A DNA stretch of 64,000 nucleotides from the NCBI GenBank assembly GCA_964016885.1, contig OZ024754.1, positions 41,850,001 through 41,914,000 of the forward strand, written 5' to 3'. A model generated the notes under the pieces. The model did not search any database and was not told the DNA's origin. It saw only the letters and a program-made list of their open reading frames with translations. The position numbers and the translations under genes were made by a program. Of this stretch, positions 22,501-63,647 are shown piece by piece (positions within the stretch are counted from its first letter, which is position 1; every line of letters begins with the position of its first letter). Source of the stretch: Eledone cirrhosa. Its lineage: Eukaryota.

Positions 22501-25500
22501 TGATAAAATGGACCCAGTCCTTCCTGTACAGAGGTAGTGCTGGTGTCATGATAAAATGGACCCAGTCCTTCCTGTACAGAGGTAGTGCTGGTGTCATGAT
22601 AAAATGGACCCAGTCCTTCCTGTACAGAGGTAGTGCTGGTGTCATGATAAAATGGACCCAGTCCTTCCTGTACAGAGGTAGTGCTGGTGTCATGATAAAA
22701 TGGACCCAGCCTACCCTGTAAGGTGGTAGTGCTGCTGCCATGATAAAATGCACCTAGTCCACCCTGTAAAGTGTTAATTCTGGTGTCATAATAAAATGCA
22801 CCCAGTCCATCCCGTAAAGTGGTTGTGGTGGTGGTGATGTTTGCTGCTGCTGTTGTTGTTGTTGTTGTAATAACATAGAACCTCTCTTTTCTTTAACTTT
22901 ACAGTATTCTGTCATCTGGCCAGCCGTATTCTTGATATTTCTGATGCTGAGCTGAAAATCACACCCAACCTTTCTATCACACTATTCCAATATTCACTTT
23001 TCTTCAGAAATGAAGGATTTGTTCTTGTTGACAAAATTATTGAAGAAAGTAAGTATGATTCATGACGATGATGATGATGGTTTATTTTAAGTGATTGATA
23101 TCTTCCAGGTGTGAAATGGCTTTATTACTTAACCCTTTAGTATTTACATTACTCTATATATACTATTGTATTTTCGCAATAAAGGATTTATCTCACATAA
23201 TATTGAATCTATGAGATTTTGATATTATTTATTTTGAGAACAATACTTTAACGTCAGTATGAGTGGCCAGTTATGACCAGTTTGAACAGAAAGAGGTGAG
23301 AGAATTCAAGCCAGTGATGGCCGGTTTAAATGTTAAAGAGTTAAAGTATATATTATATGATGTAGGCATCACATAATGTATCTATTATATAGTGCATCTG
23401 TTACATAACGTACCTATTGCATAATGTATCTATTACATAGTGCATCTGTTACATAGCATACCTATTGCATAATGTATCTATTACATAGTGCATCTGTTAC
23501 ATAGCATACCTATTGCATAATGTATCTATTACATAGTGCATCTGTTACATAACATACCTATTGCATAATGTATCTATTAAAGGATGTATTAGAGTAACGG
23601 CTCGTAGCCTAGGAGTTTCGATAGCTATGAATTATTGTTTTGTCTTGTCTCTTACTCCACAGACAGCACTTTGGCTTGTGTCAGACACTGTGACCCCAGG
23701 TGGGACAGCAGTACTGTTGGTAAGGGTCGAAACTGCCTAAGTTCATCTCAACGGTATTAATCAGGGTGGTGGAATGGCAGATTCAACAGTTTTAGTCCTG
23801 TAAAAGCCATGTTTATATCAAACATGATGTTTACACTCTACTAATGTATTGATTACCTTACTTATTATGGTTACCCCCCAATTGAACCTGGGACTCACAT
23901 ATATATATATGTGTGTGTGTGTGTAGGAAAAAAGTCAGTACCCCGACGGCTGAGCTCCAGCCGTTTCGATCTAGCTGTCAAAACAGCCGGAGCTCAGCCG
24001 TCGGGGTCCTGACTTTTTTCCTATTATCCACTCTACTACCCTAAGTATCGAGTATTCTGGTGTGTTATGATCCACCTAATATCTTACTACACTTTCTTTA
24101 TATTTATATATGTTAGTTAACCTATAGTTATTCAGTTATATGTTAATTAAAGTTAATTAATTTTTTTTAAATATTATTTTTGAAATGAAATGAAATCTAA
24201 TTCTTTACTTTCAGTTTCTATCAGTGATAAACTGTGTTCAGGTAATGCTGAGCTTGCCATTAGTTGTATAGAAAGACTTCATGGCAGTGTTGCCCCAGCC
24301 TTCTGTTTGAAAGTCCTTGGAACTCTGCTCATCTGTGATAACCAAGATATCAGGCAAGCTACTGGTGAGTGAGGTTGCTTGGAAATTCTATTTACAAATG
24401 TTAAAATAAACAATTCATTACTTCTCCTGAGTGTCAACTCAACTCTAATTGTTACTCTCTAACTTCTGAGTTACAATGTTTAGTTGCATGTTATATTCAT
24501 GAACTGGAAGAGTGAGGAAATGGGGAAACAGGGAGGGTACAGTATACCCTAGCTGTGATTCATGAACTGGAAGAGAGGGGAAGTGGGGAAACAGGGGGGG
24601 TACAGTATACCCTAGCTGTGATTCATGAACTGGAAGAGAGGGAGATGGGGAAACAGGGAAGGCACAGTAAACCCTAGCTGTGATTCATGAACTGGAAGAG
24701 AGGGGAAGTGGGGAAACAGGGAGGGTACAGTATACCCTAGCTGTGATTCATGAACTGGAAGAGAGGGAGGTGGGGAAACAGGGAAGGCACAGTAAACCCT
24801 AGCTGTGATTCATGAACTGGAAGAGAGTAAAATGGGGAGGGCACAGTAAACCTTAACTGTGCCGTGCAAACAAAATGGTGAAATTATTGCAACTACCATT
24901 TCTTTTCATGGGATTCCTTCTTCAAGCAAAATGCTTTCCTCATATTTTTGTGGAAGAAATTAGCTATAAATACTTACAGTGAGTGAACACCATTCGAGGC
25001 CCCTCTGGAGCAAGTGAGGGTGTTAAACCAATCTCAACTCACAATATCTATTAGACACAAGCTAATAAAGAATATATTATGTTGGAACAAATATCCCAAA
25101 GATTTTACCAGTTTATTTAATCTTGATGTTACTTTCGCTCTTCCATTTTTTTTCAGCATCCTACTTAAGGAATCTCCAGCAAAGCCGCCTCTCGCGTGAT
25201 AAGGTTTGTATTTCAGATGTCTTTCTTCTTATATGTTTTACCTTAGGATCTGTAGCATAATCATAACACCTGTAATTTAAGAGTTAACTAACTGTTAGCC
25301 ATTCATTTAGTGGTGTTCACATATTTAACCCTTTAGTTATGAAATAAAATCACCCATTTTAACCCTTTAGTTACCAACCCTGCCAAAACCACCTCTGGTT
25401 CTATGAAATAAAACCACCCATTTTAACCCTTTAGTTACCAACCCTGCCAAAACCACCTCTGGTTCTATGGCATAAAACCACCCATTTTAAAGGTTTCCGA

Positions 25501-45674: not shown

Positions 45675-46020
45675 ATGGGTATACGATTTAGTCAAGACCA
45701 GCAGGAAGCTGCCATGAAAGAAAACACTGAATATATCACTGACAAAGAACAAATTACAACTCTCTCTGCGACAGAAATCAGCTATTTAACACATATGTTC
45801 AAATTTGTCAACAATGACAGAAAGAAAGGTAAATTCTGTGACATGGTATTGTCATCTAGAAACCGTAATTTCAAGGCACATAGTACAATGCTTGCATGTA
45901 ATAGTTACATCTTTCGCCAAATAGTTGAGAAATTTTACAGTAACAAGAAGTATGTGACTATCCGTATGGATTCCATTAAACCAAACATATTTGAATTGTT
46001 GCTTGAGTACATATACACAG
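45675..46020 (+). CDS. BTB-BACK gene exon, BTB domain (MGIRF...LLLEYIYT)
   Basis: Acceptor ttccttag at 45669 (alternative at 45691); ATG at 45675; donor ACA G|gtaaga, phase 1. Confidence 0.88.
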
Positions 46021-49000
46021 GTAAGACACTTCTGTTTTTTGTAGTATTGTCTCCTGGGTATAGAACCAACACCACCTTTCCCTTGATCTAGAGTCCATCA
46101 CCCTCCCTCTTCCCCTTCCTATTCTTCTGTGACCCTAGAGCTCTTGTCCTTCCCTTCATTTTCCATTTTTAAATATTTGTAGAGTTGTTGTTATTTGAAA
46201 TAGATTTGTTTACGATTCAAATAATTGTAATTTGAAACAGTCTCACAAAATCTTCCAATGAAATACACAGTAATGTGGTTGTGTTGGTGACTTGACAAAA
46301 AGCACCCAATCTATTCTGTAAGGTGGTCGTGTTGGTGACTTGACAAAAAGCACCCAGTCAACACTGTAACGTGGTTGGTGTTAAGAAGGGTAACCAGCCA
46401 TAGAAACTAACCCAAAATACAGATCAGTATGAGCATGATGATGATGATGGTCGTGGTGGTGGTGGTGGTGGTGAGATGATAATGATATCCACTCTACAAG
46501 ACTTAGAAATAGACTGGTCAGGGAACCACGTCTTGTGTATATGTTCCATATTTTGGCATTGTTTTTATAGCTGGATGCCCTTCCTAGTGCAAACCACTTT
46601 ATAGAGTGTACTGAGTGTATTTTATTGTGACACCAGCACTACCACTTTACAGCATGTACTGGGTGTATTTTATTGTGACACCAAGCACTACCACTTTACA
46701 GAGTGTACTGGGTGTATTTTATTGTGACACCAGCACTAGAGAGGATATCATATAGGGAGCTGTGGTGTCATGTGATCAGATGGGGACTAACAGAGAATCT
46801 CTTTCTTCATTGACTATCGTAATGCATGAATGTGCCTTGGTGAATTCTAGGGAGACCTGAGAATTTCCAGAGTCTGGATAGGTAGAGTTTCATGGATTTA
46901 TGCCACTAGAGTGACATTTAGGGCAGGACTGGCAAAATAAGGGAATTTACATTTTCCTTTTCACATCTGCAACCACATATACATCGGAAAGAAGTTTAAA
47001 CAACAAAAAGTATTTTGTTAAATTTTATTTTTAGGTAAACTGTGTTTGAGAAAAACAGTAAAGAAGTTTAACCCTTTAGAATTTACATTACTCTATATTA
47101 ACTATTATATTTTCATGAAAAACACTTTATTTCACATGACTATTTTACATTATATTAAATCTACGAGAGCTTGATATTATTTTGAGAACAATACCTTAAC
47201 ATAAGTATGAGCAGCCAGTTACAGCTGGTTTGAACAGAAAAAGGTGAGAGAATTCTGGCCGGATATAGCCGGTTAAATTTGTTAAATTTTATTTTTATGT
47301 AACCTGTTTGATAAAAAACAGTAAAAAAGTTTAAACCTAAATGATTTTGTTAAATTTTATTTTTAGGTAAACTGTGTTTGAGAAAAAAGAATGTTGCTGA
47401 GGTTTTTATAGCTGCTACATATTTAAAGATGCCAAGTATTTGTGAACTCTGTATTAATTTCATTGATGATATGGATGTAGAACAAGCTTTATTAATAATT
47501 ACAACTAAAAACCTACCATGTTCAAATGATGTATTTCGTAAGGTTTATCATTTCATTGAAAATAACTTTCATAAAGTCTGTCAACACGAATTTTACCTGA
47601 ATATAGGAGTCATTGTTTTGTCAAGACTTTTGTCAAGTAATAACTTAAACGTAAAATGGGAACTGGAGGTGCTTGGCAACTTGCTAAAATGGACGTACCA
47701 TAGCTTCAAGGAGCGGGAGAGCTACTTTACAACACTCGTTAAATATGTTCGCTTCACCCAAATGACCCTCCAGGAATTACGCTATGCTTGTACCATGGCC
47801 AAACTATTTCCAGAATCCAGTGTCTGCCAAATTGTTGTCGTGGAAGCTGCTCGGTAACTGTTTGTTACTTAATACTTGTTTCATACACATTTGCAATGTT
47901 ACATTTGCTGCATACACATACACAAACATACACATACTCAAACACGCACACACACACACACACAACACACTTGCACACACACACACACACACACACACAA
48001 CAGACATACACACACATGTGCACACATACACACACATGCACACACACACACACAACAGACATACACACACACACACACAAACAGACATACACACATGGGC
48101 ACACACACACACATGTACATACATACACACACACGCACATATATGTATGCACATGAGGCTCTACATGTGAAAATATATAAACAGTCATGACAGAGAGAGA
48201 AGGGGGAGATAGAGAAGAAGTGAGAGAGAGAGTGAGAGCCAGCATGGTTCCAGAGCTGACCCACCACCCCCTTGACCAGAACCCTAGACCTTCAGGTATT
48301 ACAGATACCCTCTGGCACTTCAGTAGTTCATCCCATTACATAAAAAAATCTTGACAGGCCCCTAGCACCTACTGGAACCCTAGACACCCCATGTCAATTT
48401 GACAGGGCTCTAGACACCCCATGTCAACTTGACAGGCCTTTAGACACCCCACACCCATGTCAATTTGACAGGCCCCCAGACACCCCATGTCAATTTGACA
48501 GGCCCCTGGCACCTGCTGGAACCCTAGACACCCCATGTCAACCTTAGACTGGATCATACGGTCTATAATGGTTGACATCAAAGTTGAATGATAGTTCATA
48601 ATCATTTTCAACACATCTAGTAGCAGTTCTATATAGTTAGGTCCCCATGAGGTACAAGGTAAATATAGAACATCTAGTAGCAGTTCTATATAGTTAGGTC
48701 GCCATGAGGTACAAGGTAAATATAGAACATCTAGTAGCAGTTCTGTATAGTTAGGTCGCCATGAGGTACAAGGTAAATACAGAACATCTAGTGGCAGTTC
48801 TATATAGTTAGGTCCCCATGAGGTACAAGGTAAATATAGAACATCTAGTAGCAGTTCTATATAGTTAGGTCGCCATGAGGTACAAGGTAAATAGAGAACA
48901 TCTAGTAGCAGTTCTATATAGTTAGGTCGCCATGAGGTACAAGGTAAATACAGAACATCTAGTGACAGTTCTATATAGTTAGGTGACATGAGGTACAAGG

Positions 49001-52000
49001 TAAATAGAGAACATCTAGTAGCAGTTCTGTATAGTTAGGTGACATGAGGTACAAGGTAAATATAGAACATCTAGTGACAGTTCTATATAGTTAGGTGACA
49101 TGAGGTACAAGGTAAATAGAGAACATCTAGTAGCAGTTCTGTATAGTTAGGTGACATGAGGTACAAGGTAAATATAGAACATCTAGTGACAGTTCTATAT
49201 AGTTAGGTGACATGAGGTACAAGGTAAATATAGAACATCTAGTGGCAGTTCTATATAGTTAGGTGACATGAGGTACAAGGTAAATATAGAACATCTAGTG
49301 ACAGTTCTATATAGTTAGGTGACATGAGGTACAAGGTAAATATAGAACATCTAGTGGCAGTTCTATATAGTTAGGTGACATGAGGTACAAGGTAAATAGA
49401 GAACATCTAGTGACAGTTCTATATAGTTAGGTGACATGAGGTACAAGGTAAATATAGAACATCTAGTGGCAGTTCTATATAGTTAGGTGACATGAGGTAC
49501 AAGGTAAATAGAGAACATCTAGTAGCAGTTCTGTATAGTTAGATGCCATGAGGTACAAGGTAAATAGAGAACATCTAGTGGCAGTTCTATATAGTTAGGT
49601 CCCCATGATGTACAAGGTAAATACAGAACATCTAGTGACAGTTCTATATAGTTAGGTGACATGAGGTACAAGGTAAATATAGAACATCTAGTGGCAGTTC
49701 TATATAGTTAGGTCCCCATGAGGTACAAGGTAAATACAGAACATCTAGTGGCAGTTCTATATAGTTAGGTGCCATGAGGTACAAGGTAAATACAGAACAT
49801 CTAGTGGCAGTTCTATATAGTTAGGTGACATGAAGTACAAGGTAAATACAGAACATCTAGTGGCAGTTCTATATAGTTAGGTGACATGAGGTACAAGGTA
49901 AATATAGAACATCTAGTGGCAGTTCTATATAGTTAGGTGCCATGAGGTACAAGGTAAATATAGAACATCTAGTGGCAGTTCTTTATAGTTAGATGACATG
50001 AGGTACAAGGTAAATACAGAACATCTAGTGGCAGTTCTATATAGTTAGGTGACATGAGGTACAAGGTAAATACAGAACATCTAGTGGCAGTTCTATATAG
50101 TTAGGTGACATGAGGTACAAGGTAAATATAGAACATCTAGTGACAGTTCTATATAGGTGACATGAGGTACAAGGTAAATACAGAACATCTAGTGGCAGTT
50201 CTATATAGTTAGGTGACATGAGGTACAAGGTAAATACAGAACATCTAGTGGCAGTTCTATATAGTTAGGTCCCCATGAGGTACAAGGTAAATACAGAACA
50301 TCTAGTGGCAGTTCTATATAGTTAGGTGACATGAGGTACAAGGTAAATACAGAACATCTAGTGGCAGTTCTATATAGTTAGGTGACATGAGGTACAAGGT
50401 AAATACAGAACATCTAGTGGCAGTTCTATATAGTTAGGTCCCCATGAGGTACAAGGTAAATACAGAACATCTAGTGGCAGTTCTATATAGTTAGGTGACA
50501 TGAGGTACAAGGTAAATACAGAACATCTAGTGGCAGTTCTATATAGTTAGGTGCTATGAGGTACAAGGTAAATATAGAACATCTAGTGACAGTTCTATAT
50601 AGTTAGGTGACATGAGGTACAAGGTAAATATAGAACATCTAGTGACAGTTCTATATAGTTAGGTGACATGAGGTACAAGGTAAATACAGAACATCTAGTG
50701 GCAGTTCTATATAGTTAGGTGCCATGAGGTACAAGGTAAATACAGAACATCTAGTGGCAGTTCTATATAGTTAGGTGACATGAAGTACAAGGTAAATACA
50801 GAACATCTAGTGGCAGTTCTATATAGTTAGGTGACATGAGGTACAAGGTAAATATAGAACATCTAGTGGCAGTTCTATATAGTTAGGTGCCATGAGGTAC
50901 AAGGTAAATATAGAACATCTAGTGGCAGTTCTTTATAGTTAGATGACATGAGGTACAAGGTAAATACAGAACATCTAGTGGCAGTTCTATATAGTTAGGT
51001 GACATGAGGTACAAGGTAAATACAGAACATCTAGTGGCAGTTCTATATAGTTAGGTGACATGAGGTACAAGGTAAATATAGAACATCTAGTGACAGTTCT
51101 ATATAGTTAGGTGACATGAGGTACAAGGTAAATACAGAACATCTAGTGGCAGTTCTATATAGTTAGGTGACATGAGGTACAAGGTAAATACAGAACATCT
51201 AGTGGCAGTTCTATATAGTTAGGTCCCCATGAGGTACAAGGTAAATACAGAACATCTAGTGGCAGTTCTATATAGTTAGGTGACATGAGGTACAAGGTAA
51301 ATACAGAACATCTAGTGGCAGTTCTATATAGTTAGGTGACATGAGGTACAAGGTAAATACAGAACATCTAGTGGCAGTTCTATATAGTTAGGTCCCCATG
51401 AGGTACAAGGTAAATACAGAACATCTAGTGGCAGTTCTATATAGTTAGGTGACATGAGGTACAAGGTAAATACAGAACATCTAGTGGCAGTTCTATATAG
51501 TTAGGTGCTATGAGGTACAAGGTAAATATAGAACATCTAGTGACAGTTCTATATAGTTAGGTGACATGAGGTACAAGGTAAATACAGAACATCTAGTGGC
51601 AGTTCTATATAGTTAGGTCCCCATGAGGTACAAGGTAAATACAGAACATCTAGTGGCAGTTCTATATAGTTAGGTGACATGAGGTACAAGGTAAATACAG
51701 AACATCTAGTGGCAGTTCTATATAGTTAGGTGACATGAGGTACAAGGTAAATACAGAACATCTAGTGGCAGTTCTATATAGTTAGGTGCCATGAGGTACA
51801 AGGTAAATATAGAACATCTAGTGGCAGTTCTATATAGTTAGGTGACATGAGGTACAAGGTAAATATAGAACATCTAGTGGCAGTTCTGTATAGTTAGGTG
51901 ACATGAGGTACAAGGTAAATATAGAACATCTAGTGGCAGTTCTGTATAGTTAGGTGCCATGAGGTACAAGGTAAATATAGAACATCTAGTGGCAGTTCTA

Positions 52001-55000
52001 TATAGTTAGGTGCCATGAGGTACAAGGTAAATATAGAACATCTAGTGGCAGTTCTATATAGTTAGGTGACATGAGGTACAAGGTAGGGAATATAGAATTC
52101 AGCATCCTGCTCAGATTTAACAACTTAACCCTTAACCATTCACATTACTCTATATATACTATTATATTTTCATGGTAAAGGTTTTATCTCACATATCAAA
52201 TCTATGAGATTTTGAAAGTATTTATTTTGAGAACAATACCTTAACATCAGTTTGAGTAACCAGTTACAGCCAGTTTCAACAGAAAAAGGTAGAGAATTTT
52301 GGCCGGTTTGAACATTAAAGGGTTAAACCATTTTCGCAAATTTGGTCTTAGGGCCGAAACACTCGCTTGGGGGTAGTGGTGGTTCTCCTCAGAGACCTGC
52401 TGTCCAGCTCTCCTGAGATTTCCTTCTCTGAAGACCTGCTGTCCAGCTCTCCTGAGAGTTTCTTCTCTGAAGACCTTCTGCTGTCCCCCTCTCCTGGGAG
52501 TTTCTTCTCTGAAGACCTTCTGCTGTCCAGCTCTCCTGAGAGTTCCTTCTCTGAAGACCTTCTGCTGTCCAGCTCTCCTGGGAGTTCCTTCTCTGAAGAC
52601 CTTCTGCTGTCCAGCTCTCCTGGGAGTTTCTTCTCTGAAGACCTTCTGTTGTCCAGCTCTCCTGGGAGTTTCTTCTCTGAAGACCTTCTGCTGTCCAGCT
52701 CACTTGAGAGTTCCTTCTCTGAAGACCTGCTGTCCAGCTCTCCTGGGAGTTTCTTACCACTGATGAATACCATAGTCAGTGTCCCATGTTATTTCTTGTT
52801 GATAAATTAGTTATTAGTAAATCAGTGGTGCAATTTGTATTAATGTTGAGCTCCAACAACTTCTCTATCAGACAGAGACATCAGCTACTGAGGGGTGACA
52901 GAATTCACCTGAGAGATCAACCAAGAAATGTTTTTCAAACAGCTGATAATAAATTAACAGAGGTAAGAATTAAATAATTCTTCTAATACCACATAACTAC
53001 TGCTTTCTTCTTCTTGCCTTCTTCTTCTTCTCCTCCTCCTCCTTCTTCCAGTGGGTCCTGTCAGAAGCGACCATCTCCAATTGATCTGGCTACATCCCCA
53101 AGAAAGACTATTAGAGCTCATGGATGTTATCCAACCATCTTGCTCTGGGTCTCCTGCTGGTTTGTTTTGCCTGTAAAATCTGTCCAGTGATTCTCTCCTG
53201 AGACACTTTAACCACATGCCCTTAATATCGGAGCTGTGATCTCTCAATTTGGTGAAGTAGCAGTTCTACCTGGAGTGACTCATTGATCTCTCAGCTACAT
53301 ACTCTATTAAGTAACATTACTCCAAAGACACTTCAGAGGAACACAATTCGGCCACTTGTAAAAGCACTTTTAAAATCCAGTTTGTTATTTGCAGTCATGC
53401 AAAAAACACCTCTGGTATCATCATCATCATTTTACGTCCGCTTTTCCCTGCTTGCAAGGGTGGGACGGGTCTTATTCAGCACAACATCTCTCCACTCGTC
53501 ACGGTCCTTCGTCATGTGTGTGTATATATATTTGTATTTGTATTTTAGCATAGTGATGTTGAAACATGTGAGAAATTCACAAATACTGAAGCTGATTTAG
53601 AATTCACCTCATTTGATGAGCTCATTCTACCCCAAGAGATCAACATTGATCTTACTAATCAAGAGGTAAGTTTATTATATTTTGATATCTTTTATCTAAC
53701 TACGTCTGTAGGGAATTTATTATTAAATCCACTTTTTGAAAATCCACCTCAAACTGCCTCAGGGTTTTATGAAACAAAACCTCCTATCGTGGGTGTGCAG
53801 AGGGAGGGCATTTCATGGGTGTGCATTATTTCTCCTTTGTGTGTGTGTGTGTATATATATATGTGTGTGTCTGAGAATTGTTTTTGTAAATCTTCTTCTT
53901 TGTGTACGTACATGTTTGTGCATGCTTATGTATGTGTGTGAGTGCGGGTGTGTTTATGTGTGCGTGTGTGTATAAATATATACATGTATATATATTTTAT
54001 GATCATCAACCAAGCATCCTAGTCATTATGTCACCTGCCTTCACATTTATACATCTATCTATCTAGGGCGAGTAAAATTCCCGAGATCCATGAACGAGTT
54101 CTCTCCAGCGGTCTCTGTCCCTCATTATCGCTGCCATGTCCAGCATCTCCAACAGACCAGTGTCTGTCCTTAGAACATCAACATATGTTAATCTCGGTCT
54201 TCCTCTTCCAGTGTGTCCATGCAGGGACTCCCACAGGAGCACTGAGTGCAGTGTCAACTCTGGATGTCGGTGAGAATGTCCAGCTAAAGCTAAAGTTTGG
54301 TGGTGCTTGTTTCTTGTGGTCATTTACTGCTTGCTGTCCCAGTGCAGCTGCTACATATAAAGCCTATATTCTAGCAATGTTACATGGTAGTGAGACATGG
54401 GTGCTGTCTCTAGAAGACTTGCATAGATTAGAAAGAAATGAAGCCTGCATACTCCGATGGATGTGTAATAGTAATATACGCGAACGGCAAAGCATAAACG
54501 AATTGAGAGAGAGAGAGACTGAGCATAAGAGGAATCAAATGTTGCGTGCAGGAGAGGAGGTTGTGTTGGTATGGACATGTGATGCGTATGAAGGATGACA
54601 GCTGCATAAAAAGGTGCAGAGCCCTAGAAGTCGATGGAAGCCACGGAGTGGGGGAGACCCAAGGAGACCTGCAATGAGGTGATAAAAACCAACCTTACCC
54701 AATTGCACCTCTCAAGGGCGATGACACATGACTGTGACCTCTGGCGTCATGCAGTAATACAGAAGACCCGACTTCCCATGGGTACAAGCCGAAGCTGAAG
54801 GATATAGACAATATGCCCCCACCGCCTCCCACTGCAAAGTGGTCATGGAGGCGCCACGGCAAAAAAGCACCCAGCACTCACTGTAAATGAGGTTGGTGTT
54901 AGGAAGGGCATCCAGCTGTAGAAATCAAGCCAGAATCAGTTCCTGTATGAGCAAGACAAGGTCAGCCCACTGGACACTGCCCACAACAGGACAACCCGTC

Positions 55001-58000
55001 TAACCCATGCTAGCGTGGGAGAACGGACGTAAAACGGTGATGATGATATTATTTTCAGGATAGTGTTAAATATCTAGCTGATGGTAATGAAGTAAAAACA
55101 GGTAATAGATCTCCAAATATGAGACGTTCTTTAACGCTTCCTTCATCCAGAGAATGTACCCAGTACACATTGTAGGGTGCTAGTGATGGCGCCCCAATAG
55201 AATAAACCCAGTACATTGTAAAGTAGTAGTGATGGTTTCATATTTGTCCCATGAGCACTGGAACAAATGGTATCAACTTTAATTACTGAAACTATAAGGA
55301 TTTCCACAAATTGGCTGAAGAGAAGGGACTATCCATGATTTTTTCGTTGTCTGTCTTGTGCATTACTTTTTTGATTGATATAATATATATTTAGTTACAG
55401 GATAGTTATAAATATGGTGTGGCTGATAATGAAAGGGAAATATGTTATAGAAGTCACAATATGACACCTGCTTCAGCCTCTACTTCATATACAGACACCA
55501 ATCAGTCTGAAGTGTTCAATATATATCTTCCTGGACAAAATCAGGTAGGTTTATATTCTTGACATAAATGAATATCCCACCATACATATACGTCAAGGTT
55601 AAATGTTGGATATTGTAGATACATTTGTCAACCTAAGTAGCACCCTATCCAGGTTTAAAGTCCTTGATGAGGAGTGTTGGACATTGTGGATATATTAGCA
55701 TATATTAAGGTCCTGTCCTTGATGAGGAATGTTGGATATTGTGGATACTTTGTCTAGCTAAGTAGTACTCTATCCAGGTTTAATGTCCTTGATAAGGAAG
55801 TCAATTATAGACTTTCCAAGTCGATCTTTCCAGGGCAGAGTTGATTAAATCAACCCCAGTAGTTGACTGGTACTGCATTTTATCAAACCCAGACGGATGA
55901 AAGTCAAAGTCGACCTCAGCAGGATTTGATCTCAATAAAGAGCCGAAATAAATGCTGCTATGGCATTTGATCCGACGCTCTACCAATTCTGCCAATCCAC
56001 CAGCCTTTATATGTACTGTATCATGTGGCTTTGATCCTCAGAAGCTGAATCCTTAGGAATTCCCTTCCCAGCCACCAAGTTTTCACTGTAGATGTTGCCT
56101 TAAAACTGCTGAAGCTGAACATCAATCAGATGAATTTAACCAGTCTCAGAGGAAAGCTTGTGATAGTTATGGGCACATCCTTTGACTGCCACTCAAACCC
56201 CCCAAAATGAGCTGAAACTGTAAGGTAAACCATTGAATATCCTTGATACATTGTAATGAGGTTAGGAAGGGCACCCAGTACACTCTGTAAAAGGGGGTTA
56301 CTGTTAGGAAAGACATCCAGCCATAGAAATCTTGCCAAACATGGAGTTGAGGGGATTTGCACAACAAGCTGGTGCTGGTGCCATGACAATATAAACCCAA
56401 TACATTCTCTAAAGGGGTTGAGGAGAACATCTAGCCATAGAAATCTTGTTAGACATAGGCTTGAGAGCACACTTCAGTTGTGTCTAGGGCACAACAACCT
56501 CCCTCGTGTTGGTGCCATAATAAAATGAACCCAGTACATTCTGTAAAGTGTAGCAATGTACTTAAGCCTCTAATCAGTCAAGGATGACAGTGGCTTTGAT
56601 TGTGTATTGATTTGATCTGTGACAACCTGTCCAACCCATGCTAGCATAGTAAACAGATCTTAAACAAGGATAATAATGATGATTGTAAAACTGATATATC
56701 TAATATTGCTAAATGATATGCCTAATTTACTTCTCAAAGAATTCTTCATGAAACGAGACATCTTGAAATGATTAATGACTATAAAACCACTTGCATAGTT
56801 TTTTACCTTTCTAAATTATAAAAATAAAATTTTTTATTTTCTTAAAAATTCAATTATATTTAACTAATTTTATTTGTAAATTCAGTTTAAAATATTGTTT
56901 TCATTGTAAACTTTTTCTATTTTCTAGTGTGCCAACAATGTTTTGGAAGACTATATTCAATCCAACTCATGTGCATTAGAGCTAAGTGCTGGAGAATCAT
57001 CTATGACTAATATTAAATCAAGTCGTGTTACTAAGGTTGTACGTTTTAAGCTAGACTCAAAGGCAGATCGTAAAAACTGTCGGCTTTCACCAAATGTTTT
57101 CGATGGCAGTTTTTATTTCAAGGGAAATTCAGTGAAGACGAGATCTATTCTGCATAACTCTTCAATTCAGCTCAAAGAGAGAGATGAGAAGAAGCAACTA
57201 GAAAATGAAATAGTTCTAAAGAGAGAAAAAGATTTCAATAAATTACCATTAGGTTTGCTTAAAGAGATTTTAGAGGTACCTAATCAATTACAGGTTAATT
57301 CTACCACAGGATTAAAGTCTGTCGCATCAAAATATAAAGCAATAATTCATGGCAACTCCATTCAAGAGGTTGTGGCACCTGTTTTCGTGGAAAAAACAGC
57401 TTCTGTTTTACCTAGTAATAGAAGCCATCAGCATGTCAGCTTATCTCCTTGTGTTTCCAATCAATTGGATTGTACTAGACCAGAAATGGCACTACTCCAT
57501 TCTGACAAGAATTCAAAATGGTTTACAAATAAAATTAAAACAATCTTTAGACAGACAAAACAAATGAACTTCAGAATTAAACAACACTCTAGAAGACATT
57601 TGATCAGCAAATCTAACAAAACAAAAATTAATAAAATATTAAAAAATCTCCATAAAAGGACTTCATGTGTTTCTTGTATATCTGGCAAGCAGAGGGTATC
57701 AGGATTTCTCAAAGACTTAACACTAAAACCCAATGTAGTTATTGGAGGTGCTGCAAACTATTTGATCGACTATGAGAAACATTTTCCATTCACTTCAGAT
57801 GTTACTTGCAGAAAACTGTTATGTTACTATCGTAATATGAATACGAGGACAGGAGGAAATTATGATAGGGTAAAATACATAAAAGGTGGATTTTCTAGCG
57901 GTGTGCTTGCAAACAGTGAAACTAGTTCAGAAGCAGAATCGGATATAGATGAAAATTTTAATAACGACTATGGTAGCAAACATAAGTTTGTATTAAAACA

Positions 58001-61000
58001 TATTTCTGAGGCAGAGAATGAGGAAGAGGAAGAGGAGGAGGAGGAGGAAGAGGAAGATGGTGCTAAAGCTGAAAATATGGAATCTCTTCCACCACTAAAA
58101 AAACGTGACACAATCCGCTTAATACAAACAAATTCAAAATTAGAAGCCAATGCACCCATTCCAGACATACACAAGGGAGCTTTTTATGGAACTGATATCT
58201 CTATAACTGCTGGAGATGACATGATGTCTCCGGCAACAAATATGACTTCTGCTTATATCTGGGAAAAAGAATCTGAGTCAAAGCCGGTAATTATGATGAA
58301 AAACACTGACTTTAATTATAAACTACCCAATGTTTGTTCTGTCATTGCATCAGTAGAAGGACCGAACTCTAATGTTCTTAATCTAACTTCATACCTTACT
58401 CAGAGACGTAATTCTGTTGATGTATGTACAGACTTATTAAAACTTGCACATAAGAGAGCCACACCAAAGAAAAGTTTTTCTGCTGAATCAATATGTGTTT
58501 GGGAAGAAAACCTGGAGAAAAGTATTTGCGAGGCTGCTGAAAAGTCTAAATATAAAGTTATATTCAATAAAAAATCTTCAAAAGCTTCGATGACATACAC
58601 TGCTGAATCGGAAAACAAAATTCCCCAAATAGATAAGAACGACAAAAATAATTCACAGAATAATAAATATGATCTGTCAAAAAAAGGTCCCTTAAACGAA
58701 ACAAATGTAAATCCTCGTTATAATATAGAGATTTCTATTAACAATAACCCAGATGGTTTGAGCAACGTTGAAGGTGAGGATGGTGATAGCACAAACCAAG
58801 TGGGAACTTTGGATCCTGACAGCAACCAGCCGCACACTTCGTCTTCTAAAATGGTGGTAAGACATTATCTTCTTCTTCTTCTTCTTCTTCTTCTTCTTCT
58901 TCTTCTTCTTCTTCTTCTTCTTCTTCTTCTTCTTCTTGCCTTCTTCTTCTTCGTCGTCGTCGTTGTCGTCTCTTCCTCCTTTTTCCAGTGGGTCCTGTCA
59001 GAAGCGACCATCTCCAATTGATCTGGCTACATCCCCAAGAAAGACTATTAGAGCTCATGGATGTTATCCAACCATCTTGCTCTGGGTCTCCTGCTGGTTT
59101 GTTTTGCCTGTAAAATCTGTCCAGTGGTTCTCTCCTGAGACACTTTAACCACATGCCCTTAATATCGGAGCTGTGATCTCTCAATTTGGTGAAGTAGCAG
59201 TTCTACCTGGAGTGACTCATTGATCTCTCAGCTACATACTCTATTAAGTAACATTACTCCAAAGACACTTCAGAGGAACACAATTTCGGCCATTTGTATT
59301 CGCGAACGTATTTTTGGGGGCCATTGCTCAACACTCATGGCCATAAGTAAGAATTGGTATGAAGATTGTGAGTTTGGCTTTTACACCTGCCTCTCTTTTT
59401 CTGATGACTGGATGCTAAAGCTGATGCATTTCTGTACCAGTCGCTGCAATTCCTGCACTTAACTCATCCTCCTGCCTTCCATCACTTGTAAACACGGCTC
59501 TGAGATAATTGAACTTCTCCAGCTGCTTCTGTGGAATTCCACTCACATGTAGAGTGCACTGTGCAGGCTTCCTTGAGAAGATGAGTGTCGCTGTCTTCAC
59601 AACATTGTCGTGCAGCACTTTTAAAATCCAGTTTGTTATTTGCAGTCATGCAGAAAACACCTCTGGTGTGTGTGTGTATATATATATTTGTATTTGTATT
59701 TTAGCAGAGTGATGTTGAAACCTGTGAGAAACACACAAATACTGAAGCTGATTTAGAAGTGACCTCATTTGATGAGCTCATTCTACCCCAAGAGATCAAC
59801 ATTCATCTTACTAATCAAGATGTAAGTTTATTATATTTTGATATCTTTTATCTAACTACGTCTGTAGGGAATTTATTATTAAATCCACTTTTTGAAAATC
59901 CACCTCAAACTGCCTCAGGGTTTTATGAGTTTTATGAGTTTTATTAATAGTGTCAATTCCCCTTAATTTTATTTTTTCTGGAGATTCATGTTAAATTTAT
60001 AGTGCATCTTATATGGAGACACATGGCTTAGTGGTTAGAGCATTGGGCTTGCAATCGAAAGATTGTGAGTTGAATTCTCAGACTGGATGATGTGATGTTT
60101 CCTTGAGCAAGACTCTTTATTTCACATTGCTCCAGTTTACTCAGCTGTAGAAATGAGATGATAGGGACTGGGGTCCCTATCGTTCCACTGTAAAGTGGTC
60201 GTGGGGGTGCCACGGCAAAAAAGCACCCAGCCCACACTGTAAATGAGGTTGGTGTTAGGAAGGGCATCCAGCTGTAGAAATCAAGCCAGAATCAGTTCCC
60301 GTCCCACCCTTGCAAGCAGGGAAAAGCAGACGTAAAATGATGATGATGATGATGATATCATCATCATCATTTAACGTCTATCTTCCTCACTAGCATGGTT
60401 TAGATGAGTTTGTCCCATTTGAGGCAAGTTGGGTCGAGTGACCATGTCTTGCTCATATAGGACTGTTTCTGGCTGGTTTTCTATGACTGAATGCTCTTCC
60501 TAATGCCAACCACTTTACAGTGTGGGCTGGGTGCTTTTTGCCGTGTCTCCTACATGATCACTTTACAGTGTGGGCTGGGTGCTTTTTGCCGTGTCTCCTA
60601 CATGATCACTTTACAGTGTGGGCTGGGTGCTTTTTGCCGTGTCTCCTACACAACCACTTTACAGAATAAGGGTGGTGGTAATTTTCTTCCTATCACTTCT
60701 ACAGGCCAACATACTTCTAGCCACTGATTTCTGTCCTTTGAGGTAATTTTTACCCAACGTTGTTACTGATGGCATTTTGCTGTTTTAACAGCTATTCTTA
60801 TGTTGAGTTTTTCTCATTATTCTATGTGAGTATCATCATCATCATCATCATCACCGTTTTACGTCCGTTCTTCCACGCTAGCATGGGTTAGACGGGTTGT
60901 CCTGTTGTGGGCAGTGTCTGGTCGGCTGACCATGCCTTGCTCATACAGGAACTGATCTGGCTTGATTTCTACAGCTGGATGCCCTTCCTAACACCAACCT

Positions 61001-63647
61001 CATTTACAGTGAGTGCTGGGTGCTTTTTCGTGGCGCCTACACGTCCACTTTACAGTGTGGGCTGGGTGCTTTTTTGCCGTGGCACCTCCACGACCACCTT
61101 GCGGTGGGGGGGGGGGGCATATTGTTTATATGCTTCAGCATGTACCCATGGGAGGTCGGGTACCCTGTATTACTGCGTGACGCCAGAAGTCACGGTCGTG
61201 TGTCATTGACTTTGAGAGGTGTAGTTGGGTAAGGTCGGCTTTTATCACCTCATCCCAAGTCATCTTGGGTCTCCCCACTCCGCGGTTTCCATCAACTTCT
61301 AGTGCTCTGCACCTTTTTATGCAGCTGTCATCCTTCATACGCATCACATGTCCATACCAGCGTAACCGCCTCTCCTGCACGCAGCATTTGATTCCTCTTA
61401 TGCTCAGTCTCTCTCTCAATTCATTTATGCTTTGTCGTTCACGTATATTACTGTTACACATCCATCGGAGCATGCAGGCTTCGTTTCTCTCTAATCTACG
61501 TAAGTCTTCCACCTTCAGCGCCCAGGTCTCACTACCATGCAACATCGCTGTTCGGATACACGCATCATACAGTCTGCCTTTCATTCTGAGGGAGAAGCCT
61601 TTTGCAGCTAGCAGTGGTAGTAGTTCCCTAAACTTCTTCCATCCCGTTCTTACCCTAGTTATTGTACTTTCTGAGCACCCACCTCCGTTGCTAATTCGGT
61701 CACCTAGGTAGCAGAAGCTGTCTACTGTTTCTACAGGGCCCTCCCAGAGATTGGTGGTACTTGTTTCCTGTGGCTGTTTGCTTGCTGTTTCAGCACAGCT
61801 GCTGCATGTGAATCCTACATTCTTAATTAAGCTTCCTGAGATCCCGCTACATCTCTTGTGTACCCATTGTTTGCATTTGGGGCAAAGAATGGAGTTCCTA
61901 CCTACACCTTTCCTACATACTGAGCAAGGCCATTTCCCTGAGGGGATCTGGGTTCTGTTTTCTCGTCTACTTATAAGGACCTTAGTCTTTGTCATGTTGA
62001 CTTTGAGGCCCTTTCTCTCTAGTCCCTGCTTCCAGGTTTGGAATTTATTCTCTAGTTCTACCATAGATTCAGCTATGAGTGCGAGGTCATCAGCATACAG
62101 GAGTTCCCATGGGCATCCGGTCTTAAACTCCTCCGTTATTGCCTGCAGGACTATGATGAACAGGAGAGGGCTAAGAACAGAGCCCTGGTGGACCCCAACC
62201 TGTACGCTAAATTCCTCGCTATACTCATTGCCAATCCTAACTTTGCTGACTGCTCCCCTATACATGGCTTGTACCGCTTTCACAAGCCATTCATCTACTC
62301 CTAGTTTTCTAAGAGCCCACCAGATTACTGCACGTGGAACTCTGTCAAAGGCTTTCTCAAGGTCGACAAATGCCAAGTAGAGTGGCTTACTTTTAGCTAG
62401 GTACTTTTCCTGTAATTGCCTCACAAGGAAGAGCGCATCAGTGGTGCCTTTCCCTGGAACAAACCCAAATTGCATCTCGTCTATATTCACCCGGTCCCTA
62501 ATCAGCTGTGCTATAACTCTTTCTGTTACTTTCATGACCTGGTCCATCAACTTTATACCTCTATAGTTTCCTCTATCTAGTGCATCGCCTTTACCTTTGT
62601 AGCAGTTGACAATGATGCTACTGCACCAATCTTTTGGTATGGCCCCCTCTAGTATTACCTGGTTAACGATACGTGTGGTTATAGTGTGACCTACAGACCC
62701 AGATGCCTTCAGCATCTCGGCAGCTATACCCGATGGACCGGTTGCCTTCCCTATCTTCATATCTCTGATTGCCTTACTTACTACGCTGCCGCTGACTTGT
62801 ACTGCTGGTCCCTCTATAGGGTCTACGTGGGGTAGGGTCTCTTCTTCCCATGCATTCTCCTCATTTAGTAATCTATCATAATGACTCTTCCATGCATCTT
62901 TCTTCTCAGCACTTGTGAGGGCAAGCTCACCTTTATCATTCCGGATACACTTCTCTCCAATGACATCACAACTATCTCTGACACACTGCCTCGCAATCTT
63001 GAATACCTCCTGTTTCTGGTCCTCACGTTGTAAAACATGCTTGAATTTTCTATCCTCTGCTTCCCTCCTAGCTAAGTATACTTGTCGCCTAGCTTCCCTC
63101 TTGGTCTCTATGTAATGTACCCTGCTCCCCCCGTTCTTCCATTCTTTCCATGCCTGTCTCTTGGCCTTGACTGCTTCATCTACCTTATTGTTCCACCACC
63201 AAGTCACTCTCCTCCTGCTTGAGGTCTTACTCCAGCCACAAACCTCATCCGTCGCCTCTAGTAAGTTATTTTTTAGGAACTCCCAGTTCTCTTCTACGTT
63301 AAATTAGTATATATATATATATAAATGAGTATATATATATATATATATATGAAGAATAAAAACACCATGTTATTTATTCATTCTGACGACTGAAGACAGA
63401 TAAATATCTGCCTTCAAGAAACCACTGGTAAATGAAATAATTATCTTATGTTGTTTATTACATAACTCTCTCTCTCTATATATATATATATATATCCTTT
63501 TAGGGTAAACTTAAGTACTTTGTGGTTGGTAATGAAGTGGAAAAATATAACAAATCTACAAATACTGAACCTGATTCAACAACTGCTCCCTCCAGAGACT
63601 CTAGTGGACCCCATGAGATCAACTTAAGCCTTCATGAAAGTGAACAG
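45675..63647 (+). CDS. BTB/POZ-BACK domain protein (kelch-like N-terminus) with long low-complexity and repeat-exon C-terminal region; 3'-partial, about 1125 aa in window
   Basis: BTB motifs (KFCDMVL..F.AH..MLACNS.IF; FELLLEYIYTG.L....NV..V..AA.YL.M) are followed by BACK motifs (FIENNF..V...EFY.....L..LL.S..LNV..E.EV....LKW....ER....LVKYVRF..M). Downstream exons join with consistent phases. Confidence 0.8.
47367..47853 (+). CDS. BTB-BACK gene exon, BTB end plus BACK domain (GKLCLRKKNVAEVF...VVEAA)
   Basis: ttttag|GT AAA...GCT CG|gtaact; 487 nt, phase 1-2. Confidence 0.9.
48611..52084. repeat. 56/57-bp satellite array (about 62 copies) in a BTB-BACK intron
   Basis: Unit aacatctagtggcagttctatatagttaggtgacatgaggtacaaggtaaata(t/c/g)ag. 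Confidence 0.97.
52387..52755. repeat. 42-bp (some 39-bp) minisatellite (about 9 copies)
   Basis: Unit ctctgaagaccttctgctgtccagctctcctgggagtttctt; produces spurious open frames on both strands. Confidence 0.9.
52872..52962 (+). CDS. BTB-BACK gene exon (RQRHQLLRGDRIHLRDQPRNVFQTADNKLTE)
   Basis: tatcag|A CAG...GAG|gtaaga; 91 nt, phase 2-0; EA...H...PR pattern typical of the post-BACK linker. Confidence 0.8.
53549..53665 (+). CDS. BTB-BACK gene repeat exon A (HSDVETCEKFTNTEADLEFTSFDELILPQEINIDLTNQE)
   Basis: ttttag|CAT...GAG|gtaagt; 117 nt, phase 0-0, open. Confidence 0.75.
54056..54330 (-). mobile_element. 3' end of a second RTE-like family with (TAGA)n tail; another copy at about 1865-1985 (+)
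   Basis: LAGHSHRHPE...LLWES.HGHTGRGRPRLTYVD.LRTDTGL...MRDRDRWRELV; near-identical to 1865-1970. Confidence 0.8.
54350..55047 (+). mobile_element. Degenerate 3' fragment of the same RTE family
   Basis: AMLHGSETW...RLERNEAC.LRWMCNSNIRERQSINELRE with frameshifts; same 3' UTR and (TGA)n tail as the 60834-63300 element. Confidence 0.9.
55059..55155 (+). pseudogene. Truncated or disrupted copy of the repeat exon (DSVKYLADGNEVKTGNRSPNM...SSRE)
   Basis: Acceptor tttcag|GAT; similar to the exons at 55401 and 63504, but runs into an RTE 3' UTR-like motif and a stop with no in-phase donor. Confidence 0.5.
55401..55544 (+). CDS. BTB-BACK gene repeat exon (DSYKYGVADNEREIC...NIYLPGQNQ)
   Basis: ttacag|GAT...CAG|gtaggt; 144 nt, phase 0-0, open. 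Confidence 0.72.
56928..58856 (+). CDS. BTB-BACK gene large exon (643 codons; K/S/N-rich, poly-Glu)
   Basis: ttctag|TGT...ATG GTG|gtaaga; 1929 nt open, phase 0-0; the core of track ORF 56943-59021. Confidence 0.82.
58868..59615 (-). mobile_element. Third RTE-like family 3' fragment with (GAA)n tail; related pieces at 53003-53355, 975-1062, 5680-5790, 18170-18260, 28780-28935
   Basis: Minus strand reads LEKFNYL..VFTSDGRQEDE...IERSQLR..GHV...ILQAK...[11 protein letters not shown] with stops. Confidence 0.8.
59705..59821 (+). CDS. BTB-BACK gene repeat exon B (QSDVETCEKHTNTEADLEVTSFDELILPQEINIHLTNQD), duplicate of exon A
   Basis: ttag|CAG...GAT|gtaagt; 117 nt, phase 0-0; NAGNAG acceptor (tagcag). 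Confidence 0.7.
60834..63300 (-). mobile_element. RTE-clade LINE, 5'-truncated (no endonuclease domain), with intact RT frame, 3' UTR and (TGA)n tail
   Basis: Frame is open 63300-61135; RT motifs YRGIKL, QFGF, AFVDLEKAFDRV, GVHQGSVLSPLLF, YADD; RTE C-terminus RRLRWYGHV...GRPKMTW; (TCA)n at about 60833-60853. Confidence 0.95.
61135..63300 (-). CDS. RTE LINE ORF fragment: reverse transcriptase plus C4HC3 PHD-type finger
   Basis: The 690-aa track ORF extends upstream in frame by 31 codons (NVEENWEFLKNNLLEATDEVCG...) to the truncation point. Confidence 0.92.
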   Translation of the reverse strand, partial: NVEENWEFLKNNLLEATDEVCGWSKTSSRRRVTWWWNNKVDEAVKAKRQAWKEWKNGGSRVHYIETKREARRQVYLARREAEDRKFKHVLQREDQKQEVFKIARQCVRDSCDVIGEKCIRNDKGELALTSAEKKDAWKSHYDRLLNEENAWEEETLPHVDPIEGPAVQVSGSVVSKAIRDMKIGKATGPSGIAAEMLKASGSVGHTITTRIVNQVILEGAIPKDWCSSIIVNCYKGKGDALDRGNYRGIKLMDQVMKVTERVIAQLIRDRVNIDEMQFGFVPGKGTTDALFLVRQLQEKYLAKSKPLYLAFVDLEKAFDRVPRAVIWWALRKLGVDEWLVKAVQAMYRGAVSKVRIGNEYSEEFSVQVGVHQGSVLSPLLFIIVLQAITEEFKTGCPWELLYADDLALIAESMVELENKFQTWKQGLERKGLKVNMTKTKVLISRRENRTQIPSGKWPCSVCRKGVGRNSILCPKCKQWVHKRCSGISGSLIKNVGFTCSSCAETASKQPQETSTTNLWEGPVETVDSFCYLGDRISNGGGCSESTITRVRTGWKKFRELLPLLAAKGFSLRMKGRLYDACIRTAMLHGSETWALKVEDLRRLERNEACMLRWMCNSNIRERQSINELRERLSIRGIKCCVQERRLRWYGHVMRMKDDSCIKRCRALEVDGNRGVGRPKMTWDEVIKADLTQLHLSKSMTHDRDFWRHAVIQGTRPPMGTC
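63504..63647 (+). CDS. BTB-BACK gene repeat exon (GKLKYFVVGNEVEKYNKSTNTEPD...PHEINLSLHESEQ)
   Basis: ctttag|GGT...CAG|gtaagt; 144 nt, phase 0-0. Confidence 0.75.

What the first reader, a model, noticed from the sequence alone, without database searches (positions are those of the whole stretch)
53549..59821. Duplicated exon has diverged faster than its introns, almost entirely at amino-acid-changing sites
Seen: exon A (53549-53665) and exon B (59705-59821) differ at 8 of 117 nt by my hand alignment. These give 5 amino-acid changes (H/Q, F/H, F/V, D/H, E/D) and only one silent-codon change (ACA/ACC). The co-duplicated intron is nearly identical: 1 substitution plus 1 indel in about 300 bp upstream (53045-53355 vs 58985-59292), 1 substitution in the next 50 bp, and none in about 105 bp downstream. 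Established: exons outpacing introns is known for positively selected toxin, immune and gamete-recognition genes. Inference: adaptive diversification of a repeat module, or gene conversion confined to the introns.
Basis: partly seen in the sequence, partly recalled or inferred. Interest (0 to 1): 0.8.

Follow-up and report, generated by a model that had tools for sequence, protein, structure and literature searches.

The report
Fast-changing repeat exon in octopus gene
An octopus-type gene that builds its long tail from about fifty repeated exons carries two copies of its first repeat exon that differ about nine times more than the DNA around them, likely because selection has favoured new amino acids in the original copy, though whether either copy is spliced into the message is untested.

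Summary
The counts hold. Exons A and B differ at 8 of 117 nt against 4 of 513 in co-duplicated intron (p=0.0003; p=0.004 as 6 events; 0.008-0.08 after a scan correction). The claim "almost entirely amino-acid-changing" is not evidence: 81% of changes versus 79% of sites (pN/pS about 1.1). The introns also differ by large indels.

Both exons belong to a single-copy octopod BTB-BACK gene whose tail is a 53-copy, phase-0 exon array running about 66 kb past the window. B is repeat 1 in its orthologous slot. A is a young copy dropped into an upstream intron and is absent from 18 of 18 Octopus isoforms. All 3 polarisable changes lie on B.

The array adds modest support for diversifying selection: omega 1.4-1.7 over 43 exons, 7 synonymous versus 61 replacement variants (p=0.008), no nonsense changes. 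Private variants, however, look neutral (20:70).

Best reading: positive selection on B, dated by A (0.5). Rivals are flank conversion with selection (0.2) and neutral clustered mutation (0.25). Splicing is untested. The scan noted what appears to be this gene in another genome, and this exon-over-intron pattern at other loci of this genome. Known kind of pattern; moderate interest.

The parts
45675..46020 (+). Coding exon 1 (start ATG, BTB domain N-part)
   Evidence: Pfam BTB E=1.4e-17; 59-60% identical to Octopus orthologues; ends
47367..47853 (+). Coding exon 2 (end of BTB, BACK domain)
   Evidence: Pfam BACK E=2e-15; 69-70% identical to orthologues; next best match in the genome 35%
52872..52962 (+). 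Linker exon E0 (phase 2 to phase 0)
   Evidence: matches Octopus residues about 279-307; splice ends read
53005..53772 (+). Duplicated unit A: microsatellite, old retroelement fragment, exon A and 107 bp downstream, lying in the E0-to-large-exon intron
   Evidence: self-BLAST blocks 53005-53360, 53363-53416, 53515-53772 match 58927-59928; only two copies found in the genome
53417..53514 (-). 98-bp truncated retroelement end present only in unit A; young
   Evidence: 98-99% identical to many genomic copies; one difference from the nearest; strand inferred from the position of its short-repeat tail
53549..53665 (+). Exon A: ectopic copy of repeat 1, 39 codons, phase 0-0; keeps family-type letters
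   Evidence: no counterpart in 18 of 18 Octopus isoforms; splicing untested
55059..55153 (+). Truncated Y-type repeat exon (3' part and donor deleted); part of an older ectopic duplication
   Evidence: alignment to the downstream pair; stop follows if read on
55401..55544 (+). Intact ectopic X-type repeat exon, 48 codons, phase 0-0
   Evidence: 31 of 144 differences vs 27 of 293 in flanks against its closest-flank paralogue, p=0.0008
56928..58856 (+). Large exon, 643 codons, no Pfam match
   Evidence: 42-43% identical to Octopus orthologues over 98-99% of its length
58927..59928 (+). Duplicated unit B (source position), with about 315 bp more retroelement than unit A
59705..59821 (+). Exon B: repeat 1 in its orthologous slot after the large exon; carries the derived letters at the 3 polarisable sites; tandem acceptor (TAG CAG)
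   Evidence: the position matches Octopus repeat 1
63504..63647 (+). Repeat exon C. The array continues beyond the window to about 129830 (extended coordinates); terminal exon at L009:6526

Best explanation
Exons A and B are two copies of the first repeat exon of an octopod BTB-BACK gene, and B likely diverged from A under positive selection after A was recently copied into an upstream intron. Shown: the gene runs BTB exon, BACK exon, linker, 643-codon exon, then about 50 symmetric phase-0 repeat exons and a terminal exon. A, a truncated exon and one more intact repeat exon lie between the linker and the large exon, where Octopus isoforms have nothing. Inferred: about 1 kb around B was copied 6 kb upstream, with deletions and a later or concurrent retroelement insertion. 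The flanks have drifted 0.8% since. A stayed near the ancestral sequence, either as a skipped copy or as a conserved spliced one. B fixed between 2 and 5 amino-acid changes in the same short time. Inferred function: the BTB-BACK end would dimerise and bind Cullin-3 as in KLHL adaptors, and the long, probably disordered repeat tail would take the place of the Kelch substrate-binding domain. The repeats would be under pressure to change what they bind (a germline or host-conflict partner; none identified).
For: Exon 8/117 vs intron 4/513, p=0.0003. Five amino-acid-changing events against 0.7 expected at the intron rate: p=0.0008, or 0.035 at the upper 95% intron rate. One synonymous change is compatible with the intron rate (p=0.19). 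Composition does not explain it: exon GC 35%, flanks 39%. The differences run from exon base 3 to the last base and stop at the donor. A matches the family and B is derived at 3 of 3 polarisable sites; protein-tree branch lengths are A 0, B 0.15. No other 144-nt exon carries B's letter at 6 of the 7 internal sites, and 1 of 43 does at the seventh, so B's changes were not imported from a present paralogue. The A-only insertion is 98-99% identical to other copies, which fits a young event. Array: omega 1.66 (p=0.0008) or 1.42 (p=0.02) over 43 exons; 4.4 or 3.9 (p=0.003, 0.006) for 14 X-type exons. Tree-free counts give 7 synonymous vs 61 replacement variants against 22.5% expected from intron-calibrated rates (p=0.008), and 6 vs 48 without cross-type variants (p=0.026). 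In 31 nearest-flank pairs, flank 2.9%, pS 3.2%, pN 6.5% (pairs not independent). No nonsense change among 90 private variants (about 5 expected, p=0.005). Between Octopus species the BTB-BACK part is 97% identical and the repeats 81%.
Against: Within the pair pN/pS is about 1.1 (1.5 with transition weighting). Two codons carry double hits and 7 of 8 changes are transversions (p=0.017), the pattern that mimics selection (bioRxiv 10.1101/165969, abstract and section headings). With events and a scan correction p is 0.084. Private variants in the array have the neutral ratio: 20:70 in 43 exons, 3:9 in the 33 core exons. Y-type exons of the 14 units are not significant (omega 1.8, p=0.13) and show no excess once the last, most divergent unit is dropped (4:13). 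14 of 68 array variants equal the other repeat type's letter (p=0.003), so exon-to-exon conversion inflates exon diversity. In the older ectopic pair, synonymous sites too exceed the flanks (12/61 vs 27/293, p=0.024). Tree-based omega assumes no conversion. Only 3 of 6 codons can be polarised. No expression, population or orthologous DNA data.
Confidence: 0.5

Rival explanations
1. The duplication is older than the flanks suggest. Gene conversion between the two units, 6 kb apart, keeps evening out the introns while selection preserves two different exon versions, both spliced (Leptodactylus ATP1A1 type).
For: Differences are confined exactly to the exon. pS of the pair (5-6.5%) is nominally as high as pN. 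Synonymous sites exceed flanks in the older ectopic pair. Conversion is evident in the array. Three large indels against four substitutions is many for so young an event. A keeps strong splice sites and an open frame.
Against: It needs separate tracts on both sides of the exon and around large indels that were not evened out. The A-only insertion is young. The synonymous signal is one change. Derived letters are on B only. No Octopus isoform has an exon at A's place.
Confidence: 0.2
2. No selection for change. The tail is a coding but nearly unconstrained disordered region, and B happened to collect a few clustered or multi-nucleotide mutations; the first reader picked the pattern after the fact.
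For: Replacement share equals the neutral share. 7 of 8 transversions and two double-hit codons. p=0.084 for 6 events with scan correction. Array singletons are neutral. A single error-prone episode would also put all changes on one copy.
Against: Six separate events over 115 bp is far above the flank rate (p=0.004) and coincides with the exon edges. No local template longer than 7 nt explains B's changes. Array-wide omega is above 1 in 7 of 8 codon-model tests.
Confidence: 0.25
3. Some or all of the differences are assembly errors or allelic variants of one individual.
For: At 53648 and 53665 contigs show only B letters; four sites were not among the rows shown; the runs are one sample.
Against: Both letters are present at single-copy depth at 53603/53605 in 3 of 3 runs. 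The depth of the merged contig (23.4, 15.5, 14.9) is nearer the dropped-bubble expectation (25.9, 16.9, 16.4) than two B-type copies (30.5, 20.9, 19.0). All changes keep the frame.
Confidence: 0.05

Closest known systems
Octopus orthologues: O. sinensis LOC118765495, O. bimaculoides LOC106876992, O. vulgaris CAI9729897.1 (named 'actin-binding IPP')
   Same: Same order of parts: BTB, BACK, linker, large exon, CxxC-bearing repeats, Cys-rich tail; 59-70% identity in BTB-BACK, 42% in the large exon. The repeat profile finds only this protein among 1.84 billion representatives.
   Different: About 10-12 repeats there against 53 copies here, mostly a separate expansion of alternating X/Y units. No exon between linker and large exon in 18 of 18 isoforms. 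The window's last exon shifts frame relative to the Octopus tail.
KLHL / KBTBD Cullin-3 adaptors (KEAP1, KLHL3, KLHL11)
   Same: BTB and BACK in tandem; best solved-structure matches cover orthologue residues 37-282, E about 1e-15.
   Different: No Kelch repeats; replaced by a long tail with no Pfam match. Cullin-3 binding not tested.
Abalone VERL repeat array (PMC2704960, passages read)
   Same: The first repeats escape homogenisation and show positive selection while interior repeats are evened out; B is repeat 1 and far from the homogenised core.
   Different: VERL is an egg-coat protein with a known partner and cross-species and population tests. This protein is predicted intracellular, each repeat is its own exon, and the interior X repeats also show omega above 1.
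Snake three-finger toxin genes, exons outpacing introns (PMC2474615, passages read)
   Same: Introns alike, exons more different.
   Different: Paralogous secreted toxin genes there; two exon copies inside one non-secreted gene here. Nothing suggests a toxin.
Leptodactylus ATP1A1 R/S duplicates (bioRxiv 10.1101/2020.08.04.234435, passages read)
   Same: Model for rival 1: selection keeps amino-acid differences against conversion.
   Different: There the duplication is shown to be ancient across species and the function is known; neither is shown here.
Caenorhabditis F-box adaptors (PMC8665587, passages read)
   Same: Ubiquitin-ligase adaptor with a conserved cullin-side domain and positively selected substrate-side region.
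   Different: Large multigene family there; a single-copy gene diversifying internal exon repeats here.

Membership tests
KLHL (BTB-BACK-Kelch) | BTB domain | tested here: met
   Pfam PF00651 above cut-off
KLHL (BTB-BACK-Kelch) | BACK domain | tested here: met
   Pfam PF07707 above cut-off
KLHL (BTB-BACK-Kelch) | C-terminal Kelch propeller | tested here: not met
   no Kelch match in two full-length orthologues or the large exon; so not a KLHL member
Cullin-3 substrate adaptor | binds Cullin-3 through BTB and 3-box | not tested
   only sequence likeness across that region to KEAP1, KLHL3, KLHL11
Positively selected duplicated exon | exon divergence above linked intron divergence | tested here: met
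   p=0.0003 to 0.02; 0.008 to 0.084 with scan correction
Positively selected duplicated exon | dN/dS above 1 within the A/B pair | tested here: not met
   pN 0.073, pS 0.065, p=0.67; only 8 changes, so little power
Positively selected duplicated exon | dN/dS above 1 across the repeat family | tested here: inconclusive
   omega 1.4-4.4, significant in 7 of 8 tests and in variant counts; neutral in private variants
Positively selected duplicated exon | both exons spliced into mRNA | not testable with these tools
   no RNA data held for this stretch; Octopus isoforms have an exon at B's slot only
Concerted evolution opposed by selection (Leptodactylus type) | duplication older than the species, shared differences across species | not testable with these tools
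   no relatives' DNA held
Mutually exclusive exon pair (Dscam type) | adjacent alternative copies filling one slot of the protein | tested here: not met
   A and B are separated by the 643-codon exon, which all 18 orthologous isoforms retain at its 5' junction; both are phase 0-0 and could be included together

The most novel reading that the evidence does not exclude
An octopod-specific ubiquitin-ligase adaptor has replaced its Kelch propeller with an exon-per-repeat array that expands independently in each lineage (about 12 vs 53 copies), diversifies under positive selection, is sampled by exon skipping, and has twice seeded new repeat modules upstream of its large exon. Exon A is a frozen copy that dates a burst of up to five amino-acid fixations in repeat 1 to under 0.5% neutral divergence: an intracellular arms race (germline or anti-parasite) run through exon copy-and-paste.
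Probability: 0.25. Interest if true: 0.7.

Novelty: new member of a known kind. Interest (0 to 1): 0.4.

Why it matters
If selection drives it, an unstudied octopod gene is in fast molecular conflict, and the ectopic copy gives an internal clock for how fast one exon can change. The 50-exon array with alignable introns is also a ready test bed for separating positive selection, exon-to-exon conversion and intron homogenisation. The pattern itself (exons outpacing introns) is long known, and the scan has logged it at several other loci of this genome, so the surprise is moderate.

Tried and rejected
RNA: no RNA holder listed; run X4 gave almost no cover of the exons; neither is evidence. Reads were laid only on 52780-53830, so unit B's own flanks and the junctions downstream were not examined. 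Protein searches with exon A residues 1-40 and with the 14-row repeat alignment found nothing. The ESM Atlas gave no usable hit for the Octopus repeat region. Pfam had only chance-level hits for three single repeats. An AlphaFold2 model of one repeat was uninformative (pLDDT 56, pTM 0.13) and was not searched. A genome search with the Octopus tail found nothing; local tblastn later found the last exon. Template switching as the source of the double hits: no local template over 7 nt for B's changes, 9 nt for A's. Import of B's letters from paralogues: rejected; repeat copies were found only at this locus (41 of 41 matches). Base composition as the cause: rejected for A/B. The first polarity table was out of register by one codon and was discarded; replace it. 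One search's first tblastn used the wrong frame for C. The bacterial promoter scan is irrelevant. SUMO-binding motifs in the 'INIDL' stretch were considered from recalled patterns, did not fit, and were not tested by a tool.
Full report
OBSERVATION. Exon A (53549-53665) and exon B (59705-59821) differ at 8 of 117 nt in six codons: H/Q, a silent Thr codon, F/H (two changes), F/V (two changes), D/H and E/D. The co-duplicated intron blocks differ at 4 of 513 aligned bases: 2/318, 1/54, 1/34 and 0/107. Fisher p is 0.0003. It is 0.004 if the double-hit codons are single events, and 0.002 or 0.02 if small indels join the intron count. Allowing the cluster to fall in any 117-base window gives 0.008 for sites and 0.084 for events. 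The exon is not GC-richer than its flanks (35% vs 39%).

The replacement share, 6.5 of 8, equals the share of replacement sites, 89 of 112, so pN (0.073) and pS (0.065) are alike. And the introns differ by large indels: about 315 bp of an old retroelement only in B, and a 98-bp insertion only in A. Seven of the eight exon changes are transversions, while all four intron changes are transitions (p=0.01; 0.017 against the array-intron spectrum).

REALITY OF THE DIFFERENCES. Only two copies were found in the genome. Contigs of three short-read runs of one sample, perhaps the assembled one and so not independent, carry both letters at 53603 and 53605. The A-letter depth is 13.0, 11.4 and 7.5 (total minus other), close to the unique-sequence depth of 12.7, 10.5 and 6.2. 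At 53648 and 53665 only B letters show. The merged contig's depth fits A's path being dropped as a bubble better than both copies being B-type. Rows for the other four sites were among 115 not shown. Expression could not be tested.

THE GENE. Upstream exons encode BTB (45675-46020) and BACK (47367-47853). The 643-codon exon (56928-58856) finds three proteins, from O. vulgaris, O. sinensis and O. bimaculoides, 42-43% identical, all BTB-BACK proteins. The BACK exon's next best match in this genome is 35% identical, so the gene is single-copy. A profile built from five seed exons finds 53 related segments between 53549 and about 129830 in extended coordinates, using 150 kb of adjacent DNA. 51 of 53 yield an open AG..GT phase-0 exon; 43 are 144 nt. 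My caller required an open frame; the two failures are cut by deletions, not stops, and two others have altered 3' ends. Most of the core alternates two types, X and Y, each with one CxxC. A terminal exon follows at L009:6526; it matches the Octopus tail but shifts frame near its end. All 41 genome matches to a repeat exon lie at this locus. The repeat profile finds one protein, the O. sinensis orthologue, among 1.84 billion representatives. No Kelch domain is present, so the O. vulgaris name 'actin-binding IPP' is misleading (that IPP is a Kelch protein is recalled).

WHERE A AND B SIT. B follows the large exon, in the slot of Octopus repeat 1; the tree groups A, B and C near Octopus repeat 1 without strong support and with a long-branch warning. 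All 18 full-length Octopus isoforms join the linker exon straight to the large exon. So A, a truncated Y exon (55059) and an intact X exon (55401) are insertions specific to this lineage. The Y/X pair is an older copy (flanks 9% from its closest-flank paralogues). Unit A is younger (0.8%), and its private insertion is 98-99% identical to other genomic copies. At the three codons that can be polarised (6, 34, 39), A has the family state and B the derived one; the protein tree gives branch lengths of 0 for A and 0.15 for B. Codons 1, 10 and 19 cannot be polarised. B's letters were not imported from a present paralogue, and no local template explains them.

THE ARRAY AS A LARGER TEST. For selection: a one-ratio codon model gives omega 1.66 (p=0.0008) or 1.42 (p=0.02) for 43 exons, 1.55 (p=0.019) for the 10 outer exons, 1.68 and 1.66 (p=0.026, 0.035) for all 23 X and 19 Y exons, and 4.4 or 3.9 for the 14 X exons of X-Y units. 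Counting distinct variants without a tree in those 14 units gives 7 synonymous and 61 replacement against 22.5% expected from intron-calibrated rates (p=0.008; 0.045 without the last unit). In 31 pairs chosen by flank likeness, flanks differ 2.9%, synonymous sites 3.2% and replacement sites 6.5% (pairs not independent, and the choice biases flanks low). No nonsense change occurs among 90 private variants where about 5 are expected, so the exons behave as coding.

Against selection: private variants have the neutral ratio (20:70; 3:9 in the core). Y exons of the 14 units are not significant (p=0.13). 14 of 68 variants equal the other type's letter, a sign of exon-to-exon conversion; without them the count is 6:48 (p=0.026), and for variants private to a set 3:20 (p=0.21). 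In the older ectopic pair synonymous sites also exceed the flanks (p=0.024). The array thus shows no purifying selection on amino acids and a modest, not decisive, excess of replacements.

MECHANISM. Best reading (0.5): a roughly 1-kb piece around repeat 1 was recently copied upstream; A stayed close to the ancestor while B fixed several replacements under positive selection. The gene structure, counts and polarity are shown. The timing, the selection and the function are inferred. By likeness to KEAP1, KLHL3 and KLHL11 over BTB-BACK, the protein would be a Cullin-3 adaptor or dimeric scaffold whose fast-changing tail binds targets; the BTB-BACK part is 97% identical between two Octopus species and the repeats 81%. 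Rivals: neutral clustered mutation in an unconstrained tail (0.25), older duplication with flank conversion opposed by selection (0.2), artefact (0.05).

KNOWN PARALLELS. Exons outpacing introns in snake toxin genes (PMC2474615, passages). Selection on the first repeats of abalone VERL with a homogenised interior (PMC2704960, passages). Selection against conversion in frog ATP1A1 (bioRxiv 10.1101/2020.08.04.234435, passages). Conversion between duplicated exons in newt Nav1.4 (PMC8476164, passages). Selected substrate-side regions of nematode F-box adaptors (PMC8665587, passages). False signals from multinucleotide mutations (bioRxiv 10.1101/165969, abstract and section headings). No paper on this gene was found: accession search 0 papers, cephalopod BTB exon-duplication search 0, and 18 listings of a broader search, seen as titles and abstract openings only, none about it. 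Supplementary tables were not searched and may list the gene's expression. The scan's own notes record what appears to be this gene in another genome and five similar exon-over-intron cases in this genome; these are unchecked.

VERDICT. A real but small signal inside a larger, moderately supported case of a fast-evolving exon-repeat tail. New member of a known kind; interest 0.4.

Noticed in passing
L003-L009 (extended coordinates 64703-129829): About 47 further repeat exons, many as X-Y pairs 389 bp apart. Several Y exons are identical at protein level. One X exon is cut by a deletion (108207), one has lost its normal 3' end (90152), one has a duplicated end (88872).
   Followed up: yes
L009:6526-6700: The terminal exon matches the Octopus Cys-rich tail but stops after 37 codons; the rest of the Octopus tail lies in another frame. 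The O. vulgaris model also has a different tail, so the end may be variable.
   Followed up: partly
window 59699-59710: B's first difference creates a tandem acceptor (TAG CAG), so B could be spliced with or without its first codon; its last difference changes the donor -1 base from G to T.
   Followed up: no
window 52963-56927: Two separate ectopic duplications of repeat exons (about 9% and 0.8% old) landed in the same 4-kb intron; two of the three copies keep open frames and splice sites.
   Followed up: partly
window 61135-63303 (-): A 722-codon open frame that reads like a LINE reverse transcriptase (recognised by eye, not scanned), inside the B-C intron.
   Followed up: no
window 48613-52097: 3.5-kb satellite of 56-57 bp units at about 95% identity inside the BACK-linker intron; other minisatellites at 9-954, 6552-7979, 22103-22833.
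   Followed up: no
window 47022-47055 and 47286-47318: Two partial copies of the BACK exon's acceptor region lie just upstream of the true acceptor.
   Followed up: no
P0002-P0016: O. sinensis has 14 annotated isoforms of 1394-1656 aa, and both it and O. bimaculoides have an extra exon before repeat 1 that was not found in this genome by tblastn.
   Followed up: partly
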